Below, in pieces: positions 17,438 to 27,375 of a DNA stretch of 61,056 bases. Where the stretch lies: the IMG/VR virus record IMGVR_UViG_3300043469_000246, positions 1 to 61,056 of that record, one strand, 5' to 3'. Position numbers and translations under genes: made by a program. Under the pieces are notes generated by a model. It made no database searches. It had not been told where the DNA came from and saw only the letters and a program-made list of their open reading frames with translations. Position 1 is the first letter of the stretch, and every line of letters starts with the position of its first letter. This DNA is from a virus. Lineage: Duplodnaviria; Caudoviricetes.

Positions 17438-17758
17438 ATGGACTTTGAAGAATGGTATGAAAAATACAAACCCATTAAGAATCACCTTGCAAGGGGTGAG
17501 GATCGGGATTACTTTGAGACCTATGACCTTGAACTGGGTTATGTCTTAGGTATCGCAGATACTCATCCCAAAAAGGTATGGACTTATGTTGATGGTGATG
17601 GTGGGACTTATGTGGTGGATGGTTATCACCTAGTCAATCGTATCTATTACTTCATTACTGAAGTGCCTTATGAGGGTGATGGGTTAGAGGTTCAGGTTGA
17701 TGAATATGGTGGGTGTGCAATTTGTGGAGAGGAAGGAGAGTGCGAACATGAGTTATGA
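17438..17758 (+). CDS. acidic early hypothetical protein
   Basis: FETY..VWT.VDGD..GYHLVNRIYYFITEVP. Confidence 0.75.
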   Translation: MDFEEWYEKYKPIKNHLARGEDRDYFETYDLELGYVLGIADTHPKKVWTYVDGDGGTYVVDGYHLVNRIYYFITEVPYEGDGLEVQVDEYGGCAICGEEGECEHEL

Positions 17759-17933
17759 CTCAGATTACGAAAGTGTTTACATGGTTGAGTTTGAATCAGG
17801 CAGAACAATCCATGTTCAATTCTTTGATGCAGAAGAAGTAAAAGATTACTGTTCTCAACATCACCCTGACATGGTTATTAAATCAATCTACCGAGAGGTT
17901 TACTGTAATTTTGAGGAGTGTGAAGATGCGTAG
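17748..17933 (+). CDS. acidic early hypothetical protein
   Basis: AAGGAG SD before ATG 17748. Confidence 0.65.
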   Translation: MSYDSDYESVYMVEFESGRTIHVQFFDAEEVKDYCSQHHPDMVIKSIYREVYCNFEECEDA

Positions 17934-18099
17934 ATATGGAATGAGTGTCAAATTTGAGGGAACGACCTATGTTGAGGTGGATGTGCCAAATGGGGAAGAT
18001 CCTGAAGAATATGGGATGGATATTGCTAATCCCAAGGATGTGGATAACTGGGAGATTATTGAGGTTTACGGATTAGATGAGGTTGATCCGAATGACTAA
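17926..18099 (+). CDS. acidic early hypothetical protein
   Basis: GAGGAG SD before ATG 17926. Confidence 0.65.
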   Translation: MRRYGMSVKFEGTTYVEVDVPNGEDPEEYGMDIANPKDVDNWEIIEVYGLDEVDPND

Positions 18100-18238
18100 A
18101 AGTATCTTAGAACTTATAAAAGAACACTTGATTACATGGCCTCAGTCGGTTGATTCTCAGTTATGGAATGACCGAGTTGATACCTTAATTAAGCGGGTTG
18201 AGGAGTTAGAGGAGAAGAAAGACCAAAAGCCCGAATAG
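18092..18238 (+). CDS. 48-aa hypothetical protein (not in ORF track)
   Basis: MTKSILELIKEHLITWPQ...EKKDQKPE; GAGG SD; ends before terminator. Confidence 0.55.
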   Translation: MTKSILELIKEHLITWPQSVDSQLWNDRVDTLIKRVEELEEKKDQKPE

Positions 18239-18260
18239 ATTTACCTAGCAGTAAAAGGAA

Positions 18261-18295: not shown

Positions 18296-19117
18296 TTATC
18301 TGCCTATCAACACCTTTTTGAGGGATTGAGACATTTTAAAAGCACCATGAGCAATATAGTCATCATTGAAATCATGCCCGACTGTCGTAGAGATCCAATA
18401 AGGTTTGCCTGTCTCTTTGGCGACTCGTTCTCCGACACCACTGGGGTCATTGTCAGCCACGACTATCCCATTGGGGATAAGCCTTGCTACTTCCTTGAGG
18501 TTGCCTGCACTAAAGCAAACATGGATTGTGTATCGCATTTTATTGGCTCTCATTACCGCCTGAATCGAGAGACCCGTAGCGAGACCCTCGCAGAAGATGG
18601 GGACACCTTTTGCGTCAAAGGTGAAAGTTGCCCCCTTCGTCTGTTGACCATAGAGAAACTTCTTCTTCCCCTCGTCATTGATGAGTTGGCATCCTACTAT
18701 TCTTCCTTCTCTTCGCATGGCAATAACTAACTTACCTTCGCCCTCTGGCGTGTTCCAAACTGGCATCATTTCGTCTGGAAATCCTTTTTTAATCAGATAG
18801 GGATGGTGCATAAGTTGGGTCTGATGCATAATCCAGCCCGCTTTTGCACTTGCCCGTTCTGCCAGTGCCTTTCGTTTTTGATCTTCTTGATTGCGTAATT
18901 TTTCGAAATGTGGGGTTGGTGCATATTTCTCGTTGCTTCGCCACATACTGGGTTTATCCATGGTTGCCCAATTCTGCACCCACGCTACATCACCCATGTA
19001 TTTATAACGCCCATTACGCTTATGGGGGTGGTCGTCCGTTGGGGTAGATATCCACTTAAATGGAACAACACTGTTAATAATGAGCCCATGGGATCGGGCA
19101 AAGTCCTCAAATCTCAT
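18296..19117 (-). CDS. TOPRIM-domain primase
   Basis: CEGLATGLS, FSAGNL, VADND, DFND motifs; ATGA coupling with helicase. Confidence 0.8.
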   Translation of the reverse strand: MRFEDFARSHGLIINSVVPFKWISTPTDDHPHKRNGRYKYMGDVAWVQNWATMDKPSMWRSNEKYAPTPHFEKLRNQEDQKRKALAERASAKAGWIMHQTQLMHHPYLIKKGFPDEMMPVWNTPEGEGKLVIAMRREGRIVGCQLINDEGKKKFLYGQQTKGATFTFDAKGVPIFCEGLATGLSIQAVMRANKMRYTIHVCFSAGNLKEVARLIPNGIVVADNDPSGVGERVAKETGKPYWISTTVGHDFNDDYIAHGAFKMSQSLKKVLIGR

Positions 19118-20592
19118 GCACTTCCCTTTCCTTTTGACCAAGCAATCATTCTATTTTTTACCCATTTTTGGGTCGTAATCGAGGGGGGTATGGTGGTATC
19201 TAACAGACCTTTAGGCCATACGCCAAATCTTTCTCGATATTTATGGTTAGCCCAATAGGGGTTGTAGTTGTAAGTCTTGGCTATGTATAAAAGTTCGGAG
19301 TAAAAGATTTGCTTATCATCTTTTCTTGCCTTATTGCCCGCTACCAATTCAACTAACTCACCCGCCACATGATCGACCATGCTCTTGCGTTTACGCACAT
19401 GACCACAAGCGGGGCAAGTATCACTGTTCTTAGGCCATAAATAACCGCAGGATGGGCATTTGGCTTCTGCTTTTTTCTTTTCAGTTAGTTCTCGCTTGGC
19501 TCTCTCTACTTTACCCTCAAGGGACTTAACACCTTCGGAGTAAATCTCATCCCAATCATCCCGAAAGCGTAAATAGTTACCTGAATGGTCTAGCCATAGG
19601 GCAAACTCTTTGCCTTCGTAAGGACGCATAACCCGCCCCATTTGTTGGACATGACTGGAAAGGGATTTGGAAAAAGGTCGAGCAGAAACTCCAATCATCA
19701 CATCCGATACATCAAAGCCTCTAGTAAGAATGTCAGTCGCAATCAGACCATTGATCTCGGTATCGGGTTTGGCAAAGTCTTCGATGGCTGCCCGCTTGAA
19801 TTCGTCATTATCTTTATAGGAAATCGAGACAAAGTTATAGCCTTTTTGGGCAAACTTATCGACCAAATGTGCGCCATGGGCTACGCCTGAGCAGAAAACA
19901 ATAGTTTTAACGGGCTTTCCAAAAACTTCGTGGGTCTTTTTAATCCATTCATCCACAATATCGCCCGTAATTCTCATGCCTCTCTCGGTGGTTTGGTCGG
20001 CAGACCACTCTCCAGCGACCTTTTTAACGCCCGTCATATCGATTTCTTTAGCAATATAGACCTTGAGTGGGGCAAGCCACTTAGAATTCACCAAATCCTC
20101 TGTGGTAGCCCCGCAGACCACATTGGAATACAGATCCCCCAATCCTTTGGTAAATGGCGTGGCGGTCAATCCAATGACTTTGACCTGGGGATTGTTTTGG
20201 ATAAAGTCAGAAGTCTGCTTTCTAGCGATATGGCATTCATCGACTATAAGAAGATCAATCTCTGGAAAGTCTTGTCTGCGTTCTAGGGTTTGGGCAGAAC
20301 ACACCTGAAGTCGGTTGGTGCGGTCAAATTTCCAATGATCGGCTTGAAATACCCCATGATTGATGCCGTACTTAGTGAGGCGGTTACTGGTTTGATCGAC
20401 CAAGACAATGCGGTCAAGCACCATCGATGCCTTCTTGTAATTGTCTTTGGTGGCTTTCATTAGGTAGATGGCTACCTCGGTCTTACCAAACCCTGTTGGG
20501 GCATACAACAGTTGAGATCGGTGTCCTTGCTTAAACCCGTCTCTTAGAACACTAACCACATGGGTTTGGTGTTCTCTTAACTCTAAATCCAT
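19114..20592 (-). CDS. superfamily 2 DNA helicase with C-terminal Zn finger
   Basis: APTGFGKT, DECH, TAT, RGFD, QMGRVMR; CPSC/CPAC. Confidence 0.9.
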   Translation of the reverse strand: MDLELREHQTHVVSVLRDGFKQGHRSQLLYAPTGFGKTEVAIYLMKATKDNYKKASMVLDRIVLVDQTSNRLTKYGINHGVFQADHWKFDRTNRLQVCSAQTLERRQDFPEIDLLIVDECHIARKQTSDFIQNNPQVKVIGLTATPFTKGLGDLYSNVVCGATTEDLVNSKWLAPLKVYIAKEIDMTGVKKVAGEWSADQTTERGMRITGDIVDEWIKKTHEVFGKPVKTIVFCSGVAHGAHLVDKFAQKGYNFVSISYKDNDEFKRAAIEDFAKPDTEINGLIATDILTRGFDVSDVMIGVSARPFSKSLSSHVQQMGRVMRPYEGKEFALWLDHSGNYLRFRDDWDEIYSEGVKSLEGKVERAKRELTEKKKAEAKCPSCGYLWPKNSDTCPACGHVRKRKSMVDHVAGELVELVAGNKARKDDKQIFYSELLYIAKTYNYNPYWANHKYRERFGVWPKGLLDTTIPPSITTQKWVKNRMIAWSKGKGSA

Positions 20593-20645: not shown

Positions 20646-21509
20646 TTAAACTGTTTCGTATTTCTTTAGTTTTGCTTTTAATGATTTAATGGTTCGCATC
20701 ATTTCAGCGTTCTCGTTTTGATAAATGTCTCGGCTTTCACGCATAGACTTGTTATCAATCTCTAAAACCCTGATCTGTTCCCGTAGGTTCTTGATGGTCT
20801 CTTCGACATCGATCTTCTCAATCTCAGAGGCATCCCACTGTCCTACGGCTATCTTGTCCCGCATGACTGTGTTTTCTTCTGCCAAAGTATTGACTGTGGT
20901 GGCTAACTCTTTGACCTTTTGCTCCAGTTCTTTGACCTCTGGGTTGGCGGTTGTTACATCAGGCTTCGTGGTTGGGGTGGTCGCCTTTTTCTTCTTATCG
21001 GTCTTCATGGTGGTTGTATTGCCATGCCTATCGACATAGGTAACAGTGGTTTGGGCTGGGGTTTTCGCTTCTTCTTGCATCGCTACACGCACACGCCCAA
21101 CAGTCATGCTAGAGATATCAAGTTCCTTGGCAATATGGTTGTTTGACCACTTGCTGTATTCCTCATCGGTAAGCATGATGCGAAGAATGGCACGGATGTC
21201 TTCGGCTTTAAGGCGGTTGCCATGTTTGTTGTTGGCTTTCCATGCGTAGAACTGGGCTTCACGCAGTGTGCCAGTATGGATAATTGCTTCGATACTGGTT
21301 AGCCCATTAGTTTTATAACCAAAGTAGCGATGGAATCCATCGACTAACCAGTATACCGAGCCATCATGGAATACTTCAACGGGCGGGAAAACAACTCCCT
21401 CACGCATCACCTCGGCATATTCTTTGACGAGGTTTTGATCTAGTTCGAGACGGGGCTGAGTTCCCCCATCAGTACGGATATTCAGTAGATTCAGTTTCTT
21501 CACATTCAC
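20646..21509 (-). CDS. ParB-like N-terminal domain protein with HTH and coiled coil
   Basis: TQPR, FPPVEV, LVDGFHRY, WSNNHIAKEL; start may be GTG at 21503. Confidence 0.75.
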   Translation of the reverse strand: MNVKKLNLLNIRTDGGTQPRLELDQNLVKEYAEVMREGVVFPPVEVFHDGSVYWLVDGFHRYFGYKTNGLTSIEAIIHTGTLREAQFYAWKANNKHGNRLKAEDIRAILRIMLTDEEYSKWSNNHIAKELDISSMTVGRVRVAMQEEAKTPAQTTVTYVDRHGNTTTMKTDKKKKATTPTTKPDVTTANPEVKELEQKVKELATTVNTLAEENTVMRDKIAVGQWDASEIEKIDVEETIKNLREQIRVLEIDNKSMRESRDIYQNENAEMMRTIKSLKAKLKKYETV

Positions 21510-21797
21510 TCCTCTTGTAGTTAAGTAAGTAATACAGTCAGGTTGCTTTTTGGTGAACGCACCTAGCCTCTCCTAGATGCCTTCAACTGTTGCTTTTTGG
21601 AGCCACAGCACCCGCCAGACGTTCGATCTAGGACTCTGGCTTCGCCATCCTTTCCCCTGTTTCAGATCTAATCCCACAGTAGGGGTTCTTCCCATATAGC
21701 TGCTGTTATGTCCGACCTATATGGTGTAGCTGTGGAGACTTACGAAGAGTGAAGAGGCAGTTATGCCTTTCACACGTTCTCGTAATTCTCCTAGCAC
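21510..21797 (-). ncRNA. ~285-nt highly structured 5' leader / ncRNA of the replication operon
   Basis: six consecutive hairpins, a 12-nt direct repeat, no credible ORF, own promoter. Confidence 0.55.
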
Positions 21798-21801
21798 GAC
21801 T

Positions 21802-21830
21802 AGATTAAACCAATCGAAATAAATTTGCAA
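21802..21830 (-). promoter_or_regulatory. sigma70 promoter of replication operon
   Basis: TTGCAA-17 nt-TAATCT with upstream A-tract. Confidence 0.65.
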
Positions 21831-21844
21831 CAATTTTTTTTCAC

Positions 21845-21882
21845 AAAAGAAAAACCCCCAGGAGTGTGAGCCTGGGGGTTTT
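21845..21882 (-). terminator. intrinsic terminator (symmetric)
   Basis: AAAACCCCCAGG-8-CCTGGGGGTTTT then TCTTTT on minus strand. Confidence 0.8.
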
Positions 21883-21970
21883 AGGGTGAGTGTGTTCACC
21901 GAGGGCTTGCTTTGCACAAAACCAATCTGCTAGGAGTGGAGAACGTGCGATACCAGTGTTGGCTGGTGCA
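21845..21970 (-). ncRNA. candidate trans-acting antisense sRNA carrying CUCCUAGCAG
   Basis: bounded by promoter and terminator; hairpins; 10-nt perfect complement of the repeated RBS motif. Confidence 0.6.
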
Positions 21971-21973
21971 CTA

Positions 21974-22003
21974 AATGTACCACATAACAGGAATAAACGT
22001 CAA
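21974..22003 (-). promoter_or_regulatory. putative sigma70 promoter for the sRNA
   Basis: TTGACG-18 nt-TACATT with extended TGn. Confidence 0.55.
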
Positions 22004-22035
22004 CATGTTGTGTTATCAAGGAACATCAAAGGCTA

Positions 22036-22329
22036 TCAACGGATATCAATAAGTCCGTTTTCAAAGAGCCAGCCTATAGTCTTGCGGTGGGCTTCTTCCC
22101 ACATTTCAACCCGTTCTGCTTTACTTAGGCTCAAACCCTGATCCAGATTGGAATGACACTGAAAACAGAGAGCCGCCACCCTAAAATCGTGCGCCTTCAA
22201 GGATCTCCCTTTTCCGTCACGGAGCTGGTTTGAGTGCGCAGCGCAGACTGTGCCGTCCTGTTTGCCACAGTTATGGCATGGGCTAGTTCTAACCAGCTCT
22301 AGGAGCTTCTTATTGCGATAAATAGTCAC
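22036..22329 (-). CDS. small zinc-binding HNH-like nuclease (DUF968/Ref-like)
   Basis: YRNKKLLELVR..CHNC..AAH..KAHD..LCFQCH. Confidence 0.65.
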   Translation of the reverse strand: MTIYRNKKLLELVRTSPCHNCGKQDGTVCAAHSNQLRDGKGRSLKAHDFRVAALCFQCHSNLDQGLSLSKAERVEMWEEAHRKTIGWLFENGLIDIR

Positions 22330-27133: not shown

Positions 27134-27357
27134 TTCTTTGCCATTAAAAAAACAACGCAAACAAACATAAGAAACCCAGTACATCCGATTAACACCAAGC
27201 GCTCTAAGTTACGCTGGCGGTGCCACTTTGGTGGAAATATAAACAGCGTTTGGATATAGATCATGTCCTCATCGTCAATGGGCATGGGCTTAGGACATTC
27301 GTTATAGCGACAGCCAATCTGAACGCCCTTGGAAGTGGTATACGGAATTGTTTTGAT
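27130..27357 (-). CDS. 75-codon membrane-anchored protein starting at ATC (non-AUG start or start-lost)
   Basis: ATC 6 nt after AACTGCTAGGAG, preceded by in-frame TAA; frame open to TGA 27130; C-terminal hydrophobic helix. Confidence 0.5.
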   Translation of the reverse strand: MKTIPYTTSKGVQIGCRYNECPKPMPIDDEDMIYIQTLFIFPPKWHRQRNLERLVLIGCTGFLMFVCVVFLMAKK

Positions 27358-27363
27358 TTAGTT

Positions 27364-27375
27364 CTCCTAGCAGTT
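27364..27375 (-). promoter_or_regulatory. AACTGCTAGGAG leader/RBS motif copy 5
   Basis: exact 12-mer on minus strand, just after promoter. Confidence 0.8.

What the first reader, a model, noticed from the sequence alone, without database searches (positions are those of the whole stretch)
21845..21970. Promoter- and terminator-bounded sRNA whose single-stranded core is the exact complement of the repeated RBS
Minus strand: TTGACG-18-TACATT, a 5' hairpin (ACCAG/CUGGU), then GUUCUCCA-CUCCUAGCAG-AUU, further hairpins (GGUGA/UCACC) and a strong terminator. CUCCUAGCAG (21927-21936) pairs perfectly with CUGCUAGGAG at all five leaders. Extra anti-SD words (UUCUCC, ACUCCU) are also present. Read on the plus strand, the motif leads only to a 9-codon frame, so an RBS role here is unlikely.
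Basis: partly seen in the sequence, partly recalled or inferred. Interest (0 to 1): 0.88.

Follow-up and report, generated by a model that had tools for sequence, protein, structure and literature searches.

The report
Phage small RNA against shared ribosome sites
An uncultured freshwater phage and dozens of relatives keep a small RNA gene whose exposed core mirrors the ribosome-binding tag at the head of the phage's early, recombination and replication operons, so it probably switches them off, though the RNA has not been seen directly.

Summary
A near-consensus sigma-70 promoter, four helices, an exposed CUCCUAGCAG core and a strong terminator lie on the minus strand at about 21845-21969. 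The 10-mer's complement occurs 6 times in the window against 0.11 expected. Five copies are ribosome-binding sites of operon-leading genes.

Comparative data add three points.
1. A covariance model finds the RNA upstream of a ParB-like gene in 25 loci at E<=0.0015. On these, 93% of cells are paired, 21 of 25 pairs change on both sides, and the core is the most accessible conserved stretch.
2. The seed co-varies with unlinked RBS tags. Relatives with the seed ..UAGCGG have tags CCGCUAGGAG, and the window-type seed finds no site there.
3. The tract just 5' of the core co-varies with the 5' end of a second same-strand RNA (RNA2). RNA2 starts about 50 nt after the terminator and runs through the orphan Rfam motif Betaproteobacteria-1 into the ParB-like/helicase/primase operon. 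Across 29 distinct combinations, 0 of 20000 permutations matched the cognate pairing.

No Rfam family matches the sRNA. The closest analogue is the c4 RNA of P1/P7.

Expression and the direction of regulation are untested. RNA-library contigs give only weak hints.

The scan noted a look-alike sRNA in another genome (e1-6248211), as a first-reader note only.

The parts
21974..22003 (-). Promoter P1 of the sRNA: TTGACG, an 18-nt spacer ending in TG, then TACATT
   Evidence: By the scorer, 21 of 25 homologues scored at least 8 of 12 hexamer positions. In 19 of these the -10 hexamer ends 1 nt before the model start; L023 and L019 reached 8 of 12 only with misplaced hexamers. 17 homologues carry TG before the -10.
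21845..21969 (-). sRNA1, about 120-125 nt. The start is inferred from the promoter and the end from the terminator.
   Evidence: Model R1 scores it at 125 bits, E 8e-27. Fold z = -4.97. No Rfam family matches it.
21952..21967 (-). Helix 1, the 5' hairpin ACCAG/CUGGU
   Evidence: All 4 modelled pairs show changes on both sides across homologues. Relatives have GUCAG/CUGAC or CCAAG/CUUGG.
21939..21947 (-). Lineage-specific tract CACGUUCUC, which pairs with GAGAACGUG of RNA2
   Evidence: cognate tracts are complementary across 29 distinct combinations.
21927..21936 (-). Seed CUCCUAGCAG. CCUAGC(A/G)G is kept in 23 of 24 distinct homologues; one has UUUAGCAG.
   Evidence: accessible; pairs with the tags.
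21906..21920 (-). Helix 2, a small conserved hairpin (UUGUG..GCAAG); coordinates approximate
   Evidence: 95% of cells are paired.
21885..21900 (-). Helix 3, GGUGA/UCACC. Relatives have GGAUC/GAUCC.
21845..21882 (-). Intrinsic terminator: 12-bp stem, 8-nt loop, UUUUUCUUUU tail
   Evidence: In one search, 7 of 11 pairs show changes on both sides and 98.9% of cells are paired.
21802..21830 (-). Putative promoter P2 of RNA2: TTGCAA, 17-nt spacer, TAATCT
   Evidence: My regex for the hexamers at this spacing, followed by the GCTAG(G/A) tag, matched 55 of 58 locus records. The -10 matches the consensus at only 3 of 6 positions, so it failed the scanner. Promoter function is inferred.
21773..21796 (-). 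5' end of RNA2, UGCUAGGAG-AAUUAC-GAGAACGUG, complementary to sRNA1 as two 9-bp helices
   Evidence: It is the best non-self site in a genome-wide duplex scan: -39.8 kcal/mol against a mean of -14.1, sd 4.1. Core helix counts are, tract covariation.
21730..21796 (-). RNA2 stem-loop 1. The 5' arm above pairs imperfectly with a 3' arm around an apical hairpin.
   Evidence: my reading of the 18 printed folds is that 15 show this architecture and L012, L027 and L030 do not.
21610..21726 (-). Betaproteobacteria-1 RNA motif (Rfam RF02932), part of RNA2
   Evidence: 100 bits against a gathering score of 49.4. Also found in 8 of 20 related loci scanned.
20646..21509 (-). ParB-like gene, first gene after RNA2. 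Helicase (19114-20592) and primase (18296-19141) follow.
   Evidence: PHROGs matches.
15107..15119 (+). RBS tag AACUGCUAGGAGA, 8 nt before the ATG at 15127
15414..15426 (+). RBS tag, 6 nt before the ATG at 15432
16519..16531 (+). RBS tag, 9 nt before the ATG at 16540
16940..16952 (+). RBS tag, 6 nt before the ATG at 16958
27363..27375 (-). RBS tag after a sigma-70-like promoter, 6 nt before an ATC (27357) where relatives have ATG. It heads the operon that holds the exonuclease and Erf genes.

Best explanation
sRNA1 is a trans-acting antisense RNA of about 120-125 nt, made by host RNA polymerase from a strong promoter.

Its exposed, conserved core (C/U)CUCCUAGC(A/G)G pairs with the extended Shine-Dalgarno tag (AAC)UGCUAGGAG(A). 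That tag marks the first cistron of the phage's early, recombination and, in many relatives, replication operons. The pairing covers the ribosome-binding site, so it most likely blocks translation of these genes once the sRNA has accumulated.

In the window's clade the same region, lengthened by a lineage-specific tract, also forms a duplex of about 20 bp with the 5' end of RNA2. RNA2 is the leader of the ParB-like/helicase/primase operon and contains the Betaproteobacteria-1 motif. There sRNA1 competes with RNA2's own 5' stem-loop, which ties the replication module to the same switch.

Shown: the gene's conservation and structure, seed accessibility, and co-variation with both the tags and RNA2.
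Inferred: that the RNA is transcribed, that it represses rather than activates, and the consequence for RNA2.
For: Motif excess. The seed complement occurs 6 times against 0.11 expected. All 5 copies outside the sRNA gene are RBSs.

A conserved gene.
- Model R1 finds full-length matches on the ParB strand, upstream of the ParB-like gene, in 25 loci at E<=0.0015. These include distant, GC-richer phages.
- On that alignment 93.1% of cells pair, 21 of 25 pairs change on both sides, and 0 of 500 shuffles reach this. Slid controls pair at 38-56%.
- The promoter is kept.
- The seed is accessible in 24 of 24 distinct homologues.

Seed and tags co-vary.
- In genome G006 the seed is CUCCUAGCGG. Its RBS tags are CCGCUAGGAG (5 sites), UCGCUAGGAG (2) and ACGCUAGGAG (the ParB gene).
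- The window-type seed finds 0 sites in G006.
- In the window 5 of 5 tags have U where the seed has A.
- In nine genomes including the window, RBS-placed tags pair with the cognate seed for 10-16 contiguous bp, G.U included. The sRNA was not located in a tenth, G003.
- In distant loci the ParB gene's own RBS carries GCUAGGAG.

sRNA1 and RNA2 co-vary.
- With the conserved core left out, the cognate variable tracts sum to -203 kcal/mol against a permuted mean of -100 (sd 11.7). None of 20000 permutations matched, over 16 combinations.
- Over 29 combinations the figures are -366.5 against -176.7 (sd 13.4), again 0 of 20000. The cognate partner ranks first in 18 of 29.
- The two variable pairs of the core helix show CG/UA/AU and UA/CG types.
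- G.U oppositions number 19 against 7 A.C, which favours this strand as RNA.
Against: No direct transcript.
- RNA-library contigs of 4 runs from 4 studies cover 21485-21775, which is RNA2, not the sRNA.
- Only one contig touches 21898-21940, and it then diverges, so it comes from a relative.
- Contigs cannot show strand or ends, and DNA can be present in RNA libraries.

Thermodynamics are unremarkable for two partners. Net dimer free energy is -8.9 kcal/mol for RNA2, whose own stem-loop must open, and -9.7 for the tag at 27373. Three control leaders give -8.4 to -10.5. Only the four plus-strand tags stand out, at -15.9 to -21.9.

The window's ParB RBS lacks the tag.

Exceptions to the RNA2 co-variation:
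- L083 has a leader that does not fit its sRNA tract.
- L027, L105 and L106 pair only through 8 A-U pairs.
- In 3 of 58 locus records my regex found no RNA2.

The alignment behind one search was fitted to the model's structure, which favours pairing.

The direction of the effect (repression) rests only on the position of the pairing over the SD.
Confidence: 0.6

Rival explanations
1. sRNA1 is a dedicated antisense controller of RNA2 and the replication operon only, comparable to c4 or CopA in logic. The matches to the five RBS tags would be a by-product, because RNA2's 5' end itself begins with the common tag.
For: The longest and most specific complementarity is with RNA2. In L042/G009 the anti-GGAG part of the seed is lost, while a 12+9 bp duplex with its RNA2 is kept.
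Against: Distant homologues have no RNA2-like partner next to them (my reading of 220 nt downstream in 12 loci; no RF02932 match in the 11 distant loci scanned). They still keep the seed, and their unlinked tags co-vary with it: G006 and G007. G009 still pairs for 12 bp, 3 of them G.U, with two RBS tags through the 5' half of the tag.
Confidence: 0.17
2. RNA2 is a decoy or sponge. Its 5' end mimics the tag and adds lineage-specific pairs, so it titrates sRNA1 and relieves repression of the tagged genes. Control would run from RNA2 to sRNA1, not the reverse.
For: No conserved ORF follows the tag-like GCUAGGAG at RNA2's 5' end (my reading of the alignment). The RNA2 region appears in RNA-library contigs of 4 studies. 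Phage-encoded anti-sRNAs are known: AgvB, in passages of PMC12197685.
Against: P1 is near consensus with an extended -10, while P2 has a weak -10, so sRNA1 should be in excess. The decoy segment is sequestered in RNA2's own stem-loop. RNA2 continues into the ParB-like gene without a terminator.
Confidence: 0.1
3. The two complementary segments belong to one read-through transcript and form a long-range helix in cis. This would be a leader structure of the replication operon, with no trans action.
For: The segments lie on the same strand about 130 nt apart, and the pairing is nested around helix 3 and the terminator.
Against: A strong, co-varying intrinsic terminator lies between them, as do conserved -35 and -10 hexamers. 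The seed/tag co-variation in genomes without RNA2 is not explained.
Confidence: 0.06
4. It is not an RNA regulator. Either the plus-strand copy at 21927 is an RBS for a mini-ORF, or the inverted repeat is a DNA site for a protein such as the ParB-like protein.
For: The word is on the same strand as four real RBSs, and a GTG follows after 8 nt. A ParB-like gene is adjacent.
Against: The 9-codon frame is not conserved (by eye). All neighbouring genes are on the minus strand. Helices co-vary with G.U pairs on the minus-strand RNA, 19 against 7. The arms differ in spacing (2 nt against 6 nt between the two blocks), which fits an RNA internal loop better than a symmetric DNA site.
Confidence: 0.03

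Closest known systems
c4 antisense RNA of phages P1 and P7. Passages of the review PMC12197685 were read; details of processing are recalled.
   Same: It is a small RNA encoded upstream of, and on the same strand as, its target. Exposed segments pair with the target mRNA around a ribosome-binding site. Compensatory differences between related phages give specificity (heteroimmunity).
   Different: The Rfam scan gave no C4 match. sRNA1 has its own promoter and terminator, whereas c4 is processed from the operon transcript (recalled). It has one contiguous seed plus tract instead of two loops. At least five further unlinked RBS targets co-vary with the seed. The phage has no integrase or resolvase match, so lysogenic immunity is unlikely.
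Plasmid antisense copy-control RNAs: CopA/CopT of R1 and RNAI/RNAII of ColE1 (recalled)
   Same: A highly structured small RNA pairs with the leader of a replication gene's mRNA. Variable pairing segments define specificity types. The target segment sits in a stem-loop.
   Different: Those RNAs are transcribed from the opposite strand of their target and are fully complementary. Here both RNAs are read from the same strand, so the complementarity must be kept up by co-evolution.
Betaproteobacteria-1 RNA, Rfam RF02932 (orphan motif). The main text of Weinberg et al. 2017, PMC5737381, does not mention it. Supplements are closed.
   Same: The motif lies 120 nt downstream on the same strand and is part of RNA2, the best-supported partner of sRNA1.
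   Different: sRNA1 itself is not part of that family. The motif does not include the stem-loop that sRNA1 pairs with.
Host-type anti-Shine-Dalgarno sRNAs, for example the 'toxic small RNA' RF02278. This was a lead from earlier AI notes.
   Same: A pyrimidine-rich exposed stretch is complementary to SD sequences.
   Different: There is no Rfam match at E<=1. The seed here reads 5 nt beyond the SD into a phage-specific tag, so it addresses a chosen gene set rather than SDs in general.
T4 RegA and RegB, protein-based shut-off of early mRNAs at their ribosome-binding sites (recalled)
   Same: Functionally, a set of early messages is switched off through a shared feature at the RBS.
   Different: Those systems use a protein repressor or a nuclease. 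Here the agent would be an RNA.

Membership tests
C4 antisense RNA (Rfam C4 family; accession recalled as RF01695) | Match to the family's covariance model | tested here: not met
   No C4 match at the gathering score in the whole window, nor at E<=1 in 21450-22100.
C4 antisense RNA | Encoded upstream of its target on the same strand | tested here: met
   sRNA1 lies at 21969-21845 and RNA2 starts at about 21797, both on the minus strand.
C4 antisense RNA | Processed out of the operon transcript rather than made from its own promoter and terminator (recalled feature) | tested here: not met
   sRNA1 has its own conserved promoter and intrinsic terminator. Processing itself cannot be tested here.
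C4 antisense RNA | Specificity between related phages through compensatory changes in the RNA and its target | tested here: met
   29 distinct tract/leader combinations, with 0 of 20000 permutations matching the cognate pairing.
Betaproteobacteria-1 RNA (RF02932) | Match to the covariance model at or above the gathering score | tested here: not met
   The match covers 21610-21726 only. The finding's interval 21845-21970 has no match. The neighbouring RNA2 is a member; sRNA1 is not.
Betaproteobacteria toxic small RNA (RF02278) | Match to the covariance model | tested here: not met
   Not among the 3 matches at E<=1.
Trans-acting base-pairing sRNA that occludes ribosome-binding sites (a functional class) | Independent transcription unit with its own promoter and intrinsic terminator | tested here: met
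   Consensus scan and conservation. Transcription itself is not shown.
Trans-acting base-pairing sRNA that occludes ribosome-binding sites | Conserved, accessible seed | tested here: met
Trans-acting base-pairing sRNA that occludes ribosome-binding sites | Complementarity to several targets that is kept in evolution | tested here: met
Trans-acting base-pairing sRNA that occludes ribosome-binding sites | Repression of target translation; dependence on a chaperone such as Hfq | not testable with these tools
   This needs reporter fusions, toeprinting, and a host.
Cis-encoded antisense RNA (CopA or RNAI type) | Transcribed from the strand opposite its target | tested here: not met
   Both RNAs are on the minus strand.

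The most novel reading that the evidence does not exclude
These virulent freshwater phages may run an RNA-only addressing system with two layers.

- A common layer: one sRNA seed reads a shared 10-13-nt tag on the leaders of all host-polymerase operons. This would be a phage-wide off-switch whose seed and tags co-evolve.
- A private layer: more than 20 lineage-specific sRNA1/RNA2 pairings act like plasmid incompatibility groups. They would set replication-operon output, and let a resident phage silence the replication module of a superinfecting phage of the same type only.

This reading would also give the orphan Betaproteobacteria-1 motif its first functional context.
Probability: 0.3. Interest if true: 0.85.

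Novelty: new variant of a known kind. Interest (0 to 1): 0.72.

Why it matters
Phage gene timing is usually explained by proteins such as sigma factors, repressors and nucleases. Here the comparative record alone argues for something else: one small RNA that reads a shared tag on several operon leaders, with the seed and the unlinked tags changing together between lineages.

The same RNA carries a second, fast-evolving address that matches a neighbouring RNA heading the replication genes. This gives a testable model for RNA-based shut-off, and possibly for specificity between competing phages, in abundant uncultured freshwater phages.

It also places an orphan Rfam motif in a defined regulatory module. 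The natural seed and tag variants already suggest the compensatory-mutation experiment.

Tried and rejected
1. Tag as a promoter for a phage single-subunit RNA polymerase. This started from a recalled resemblance to the end of T7-type promoters. I found no PF00940 match in the window, but the control genomes did not ring either, so the search is uninformative. I rejected the idea mainly for three reasons: the tags sit 6-9 nt before start codons, the sequence upstream of the 13-mer is not conserved, and the tags co-vary with the sRNA seed.

2. Plus-strand mini-ORF, or a DNA-level inverted repeat. See the rival explanations.

3. A cultured model phage.
- blastn of 21500-22100 against 50,697 phage records found one record, Acidovorax phage AP1. 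The match covers 12% of the query, inside the RF02932 part.
- Model R1 with filters off found no sRNA1 in 12 kb of AP1.
- tblastn with the ParB-like protein found 8 records, all below 60% identity.

4. Prophage or host search. The ParB-like protein has no relative in the genome-contig collection, and the sRNA pattern has 0 matches there. No host is assigned.

5. RNA libraries.
- Contigs of 4 runs cover 21485-21775.
- No contig covers 21778-21885 or 21967-22128.
- One contig covers 21898-21940 and then runs on unlike the window.
- Contigs show neither strand nor ends, and the holders were found through the most conserved words. I therefore use this only as a weak hint. Parts without cover say nothing.

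6. Energy-based target ranking.
- A 42-nt by 40-nt duplex scan puts RNA2 first among non-self sites, but 10-bp tag sites are lost in the noise of -30 to -38 kcal/mol.
- Net dimer energies do not separate RNA2 (-8.9) or the tag at 27373 (-9.7) from three controls at -8.4 to -10.5.

7. Relay idea: the freed 3' arm of RNA2's stem-loop would pair with the ParB RBS. My script mislocated the start codons and crashed. The RBSs it did print differ between loci. I dropped the idea untested.

8. Literature.
- A search for 'Betaproteobacteria-1' found 3 unrelated papers.
- The main text of PMC5737381 has 0 occurrences of 'Betaproteobacteria'. Its supplements, which probably describe the motif, are closed.
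- A six-term search for phage-encoded anti-SD sRNAs listed 15 of 27 papers. I read passages of one, PMC12197685. It names c4, sar, AgvB and AsxR. In the passages shown I saw nothing like a tag regulon.
- I make no wider claim that this is absent from print.

9. RNAalifold on the plain MAFFT alignment recovered only helix 2 and the terminator. Helices 1 and 3 were out of register there, and I added them by hand to the model's structure.

Full report
**What the window is**

The window is an IMG/VR virus record of 61,056 bases, estimated 96% complete. Its GC content is about 44%. It has no tRNA gene, and I found no tyrosine- or serine-recombinase match.

The finding lies in a 526-nt gap between two minus-strand genes. 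One is a 97-aa HNH-like gene at 22036-22329. The other is a ParB-like gene at 20646-21509, followed by helicase and primase genes.

**The observation**

Reading the minus strand gives, in order:
- TTGACG, an 18-nt spacer ending in TG, then TACATT (22003-21974).
- A hairpin ACCAG/CUGGU.
- The stretch CGCACGUUCUCCACUCCUAGCAG.
- A small hairpin, then a hairpin GGUGA/UCACC.
- A 12-bp terminator stem with a U tract (21882-21845).

The 126-nt stretch folds at -43.1 kcal/mol (z = -4.97, 0 of 200 shuffles as stable).

The complement of the core, CTGCTAGGAG, occurs exactly 6 times against 0.11 expected. With one mismatch allowed the excess disappears: 7 against 3.67, and 11 of 100 shuffles reach 7. That seventh copy, GTGCTAGGAG at 21797-21788 on the minus strand, turns out to matter.

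Four plus-strand copies lie 6-9 nt before the ATGs at 15127, 15432, 16540 and 16958, within an extended AACTGCTAGGAGA. The minus-strand copy at 27373 follows a sigma-70-like promoter and seemed to lack a start codon. Two relatives have ATG exactly where the window has ATC at 27357, and the next 24 residues are conserved. So this copy too is an RBS, of a 76-aa gene with an unusual or mutated start. All five 'leaders' are real.

**Is it a conserved RNA gene?**

The ParB-like protein brought in 48 related viral loci. The whole intergenic region is recognisable by blastn in about 22 of them.

I built a covariance model of the sRNA (125 positions, 25 pairs). It scores 95-133 bits in the 22 blastn-recognisable loci, the window at 125 bits, and 46 bits in L042. 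It also gives full-length hits of 15-30 bits on the ParB strand in 14 further, GC-richer loci. At E<=0.0015 there are 25 matches, 24 of them distinct.

On their model-fitted alignment:
- 93.1% of cells form standard pairs.
- 21 of 25 pairs show changes on both sides.
- 0 of 500 shuffles reach the observed values.
- Sliding the partners by 1-3 columns drops pairing to 38-56%.

The caveat is that this alignment is fitted to the structure.

The distant members have the same plan: promoter, 5' hairpin, a stem whose loop carries (C/U)CUCCUAGC(A/G)G, a small hairpin and a terminator. The promoter is position-conserved.

The 8-nt core costs 0.5-3.1 kcal/mol to open. The mean over all 8-nt windows is 4.6-8.8, in 24 of 24 distinct homologues.

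Rfam 15 has no family for this RNA. At E<=1 only chance-level NsiR1 and His_leader hits overlap it.

**Does the seed really address the RBS tags?**

I read the contigs of nine relatives, whole except the last 59 bases of G006.
- The 13-mer tag precedes start codons in them too. This includes the ParB-like gene itself in L014, L024, L027 and L032, and a GCUAGGAG RBS of the ParB gene in eight distant loci.
- The decisive case is G006. Its seed is CUCCUAGCGG. Its tags read CCGCUAGGAG at five RBSs, UCGCUAGGAG at two, and ACGCUAGGAG at ParB. The window-type seed finds no site in that genome.
- G007 has the same seed, and C or U at the matching tag position.
- In the window all five tags have U opposite the seed's A.
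- In L003/G001 the seed changed CUCC to UUCC. This still pairs with GGAG through a G.U, and the pairing is lengthened on the other side into the AAC of the tag (12 bp).
- In G009 the anti-GGAG part is lost, and the seed pairs with the 5' half of the tag instead.

So different lineages cover different parts of the 13-mer, which explains why the whole 13-mer is conserved. A change shared by a seed and five to seven unlinked sites is hard to explain without pairing in trans.

**The neighbour**

Fifty nucleotides after the terminator lie conserved TTGCAA-17-TAATCT hexamers. They are followed at once by (G)UGCUAGGAG-AAUUAC-GAGAACGUG. This segment is complementary to the sRNA's CACGUUCUC-CA-CUCCUAGCA as two 9-bp helices.

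It is the best non-self site in a genome-wide duplex scan: -39.8 kcal/mol against a mean of -14.1, sd 4.1.

Among relatives the tract next to the core differs completely, yet it stays complementary to the cognate leader. Examples, sRNA tract / leader tract, are CACAUUUUCUC/GAGAAAAUGUG and CACAAUCUUUC/GAAAGAUUGUG.

With the conserved core left out:
- Cognate tracts give -203 kcal/mol summed over 16 combinations, against -100 (sd 11.7) for permuted partners. None of 20000 permutations matched.
- After a pattern scan that found 40 viral contigs, 29 distinct combinations give -366.5 against -176.7 (sd 13.4), again 0 of 20000. The cognate partner ranks first in 18 of 29.

Exceptions are L083 (a leader of another type), L027/L105/L106 (8 A-U pairs only), and three locus records where my regex found no second RNA.

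In the core helix, two of nine pairs show compensatory types, six never vary, and one is unpaired in 7 of 18 sequences. G.U oppositions outnumber A.C by 19 to 7, as expected if the minus strand is the RNA.

**What RNA2 is**

Its 5' arm also pairs, imperfectly and in a different register, with a 3' arm around an apical hairpin. By my reading of the folds this holds in 15 of 18 loci; L012, L027 and L030 fold differently. The sRNA therefore has to compete with this stem-loop.

Directly after it comes the Rfam motif Betaproteobacteria-1 (21726-21610, 100 bits). The motif is present in 8 of 20 related loci scanned, and all 8 are in the close clade. No terminator follows before the ParB-like gene.

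**Weaknesses**

- Net dimer free energies are unremarkable for RNA2 (-8.9 kcal/mol) and for the tag at 27373 (-9.7). Three controls give -8.4 to -10.5. The four plus-strand tags give -15.9 to -21.9. The case for RNA2 therefore rests on co-variation, and the interaction may be kinetic or co-transcriptional.
- Expression is not shown. Metatranscriptome contigs from four studies cover 21485-21775. Only one contig, from a relative, touches the sRNA. Contigs give neither strand nor ends.
- No cultured phage with this RNA was found. No bacterial genome holds it, so the host is unknown and the phage is probably virulent.

**Interpretation**

The most economical reading is an sRNA that occludes the tagged ribosome-binding sites of the early block (15127-18238), the recombination operon (from 27357) and, directly or through RNA2, the replication operon. 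It would act as a shut-off once it accumulates.

It works like the c4 RNA of P1/P7: same-strand antisense, RBS targeting, and specificity through compensatory changes (passages of PMC12197685). It is not a member of that family by the Rfam model. It also differs in having its own promoter and terminator and a multi-gene tag regulon.

The rivals cannot be excluded without experiments: a replication-only controller, RNA2 as a decoy, or a cis long-range helix. They are ranked in the rival explanations.

**Relation to earlier notes**

My tests support these.

A look-alike sRNA with the same core was noted in another genome, as a first-reader note only (e1-6248211).

Follow-up notes on other phages describe analogous anti-RBS sRNAs and name RF02278 or c4 as the closest known family. 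I tested RF02278 here and found no match.

Noticed in passing
window 27357-27130 (minus): The 76-aa gene behind the tag at 27373 starts with ATC where two relatives have ATG. The following 24 residues are conserved. This is either a rare ATC start or a recent start-codon mutation. Standard ORF calling would start it 24 codons late, at 27285.
   Followed up: yes
window 16436-16516 (plus): There is a sub-threshold match to the RAGATH-1 hammerhead ribozyme (27.7 bits, gathering score 56.3, E 0.066), with the CUGAnGA and GAAAC cores. It ends 3 nt before the tag at 16519. If active, it would cut the early mRNA just ahead of a tag.
   Followed up: partly
window 15330-15400 and 16885-16930 (plus): Two other tags are preceded by GC-rich hairpins, followed by GUUUGUGG or GGAUUGUC, 20-30 nt upstream. 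They may be processing or terminator-like elements, so each tagged cistron may begin a separate mRNA piece.
   Followed up: no
window 21545-21600 (minus): Between the Betaproteobacteria-1 motif and the ParB start lies a conserved hairpin, GCAUCUAG-GAGAGG-CUAGGUGC, flanked by two copies of CCAAAAAGCAAC. It holds a further CUAGGAG word. In L027/G005 the equivalent loop reads CUGCUAGGG, which may be a second sRNA1 site.
   Followed up: partly
window 18249-18257 (minus); also G001 at 13312: A conserved ACUGCUAGG word sits in the gap after the primase gene, at the 3' end of the replication operon. It is complementary to the seed for 8-9 nt and is not next to a start codon.
   Followed up: no
L018, L019, L025, L045 downstream of their sRNA1 homologues (for example L025 at about 2085-2150): Distant relatives have, in place of RNA2, a different conserved structured element with the shared words ACAGGAUUCC and GGUUCGGUUGUUG inside a long G/C-rich stem. 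No Rfam match at the gathering score was found in the loci scanned.
   Followed up: no
L083 (IMG/VR contig of 5878 bases): Here the sRNA tract and the RNA2 leader do not fit each other, and the leader is of the L081 type. It looks like a natural recombinant, which could show what happens when the pair is mismatched.
   Followed up: no
window 21485-21775: Metatranscriptome contigs from four studies cover this stretch at 95-99% identity. Several end at 21716 or at 21507-21509 without loose ends. This is a weak hint that the Betaproteobacteria-1 part of RNA2 is a stable RNA species.
   Followed up: partly
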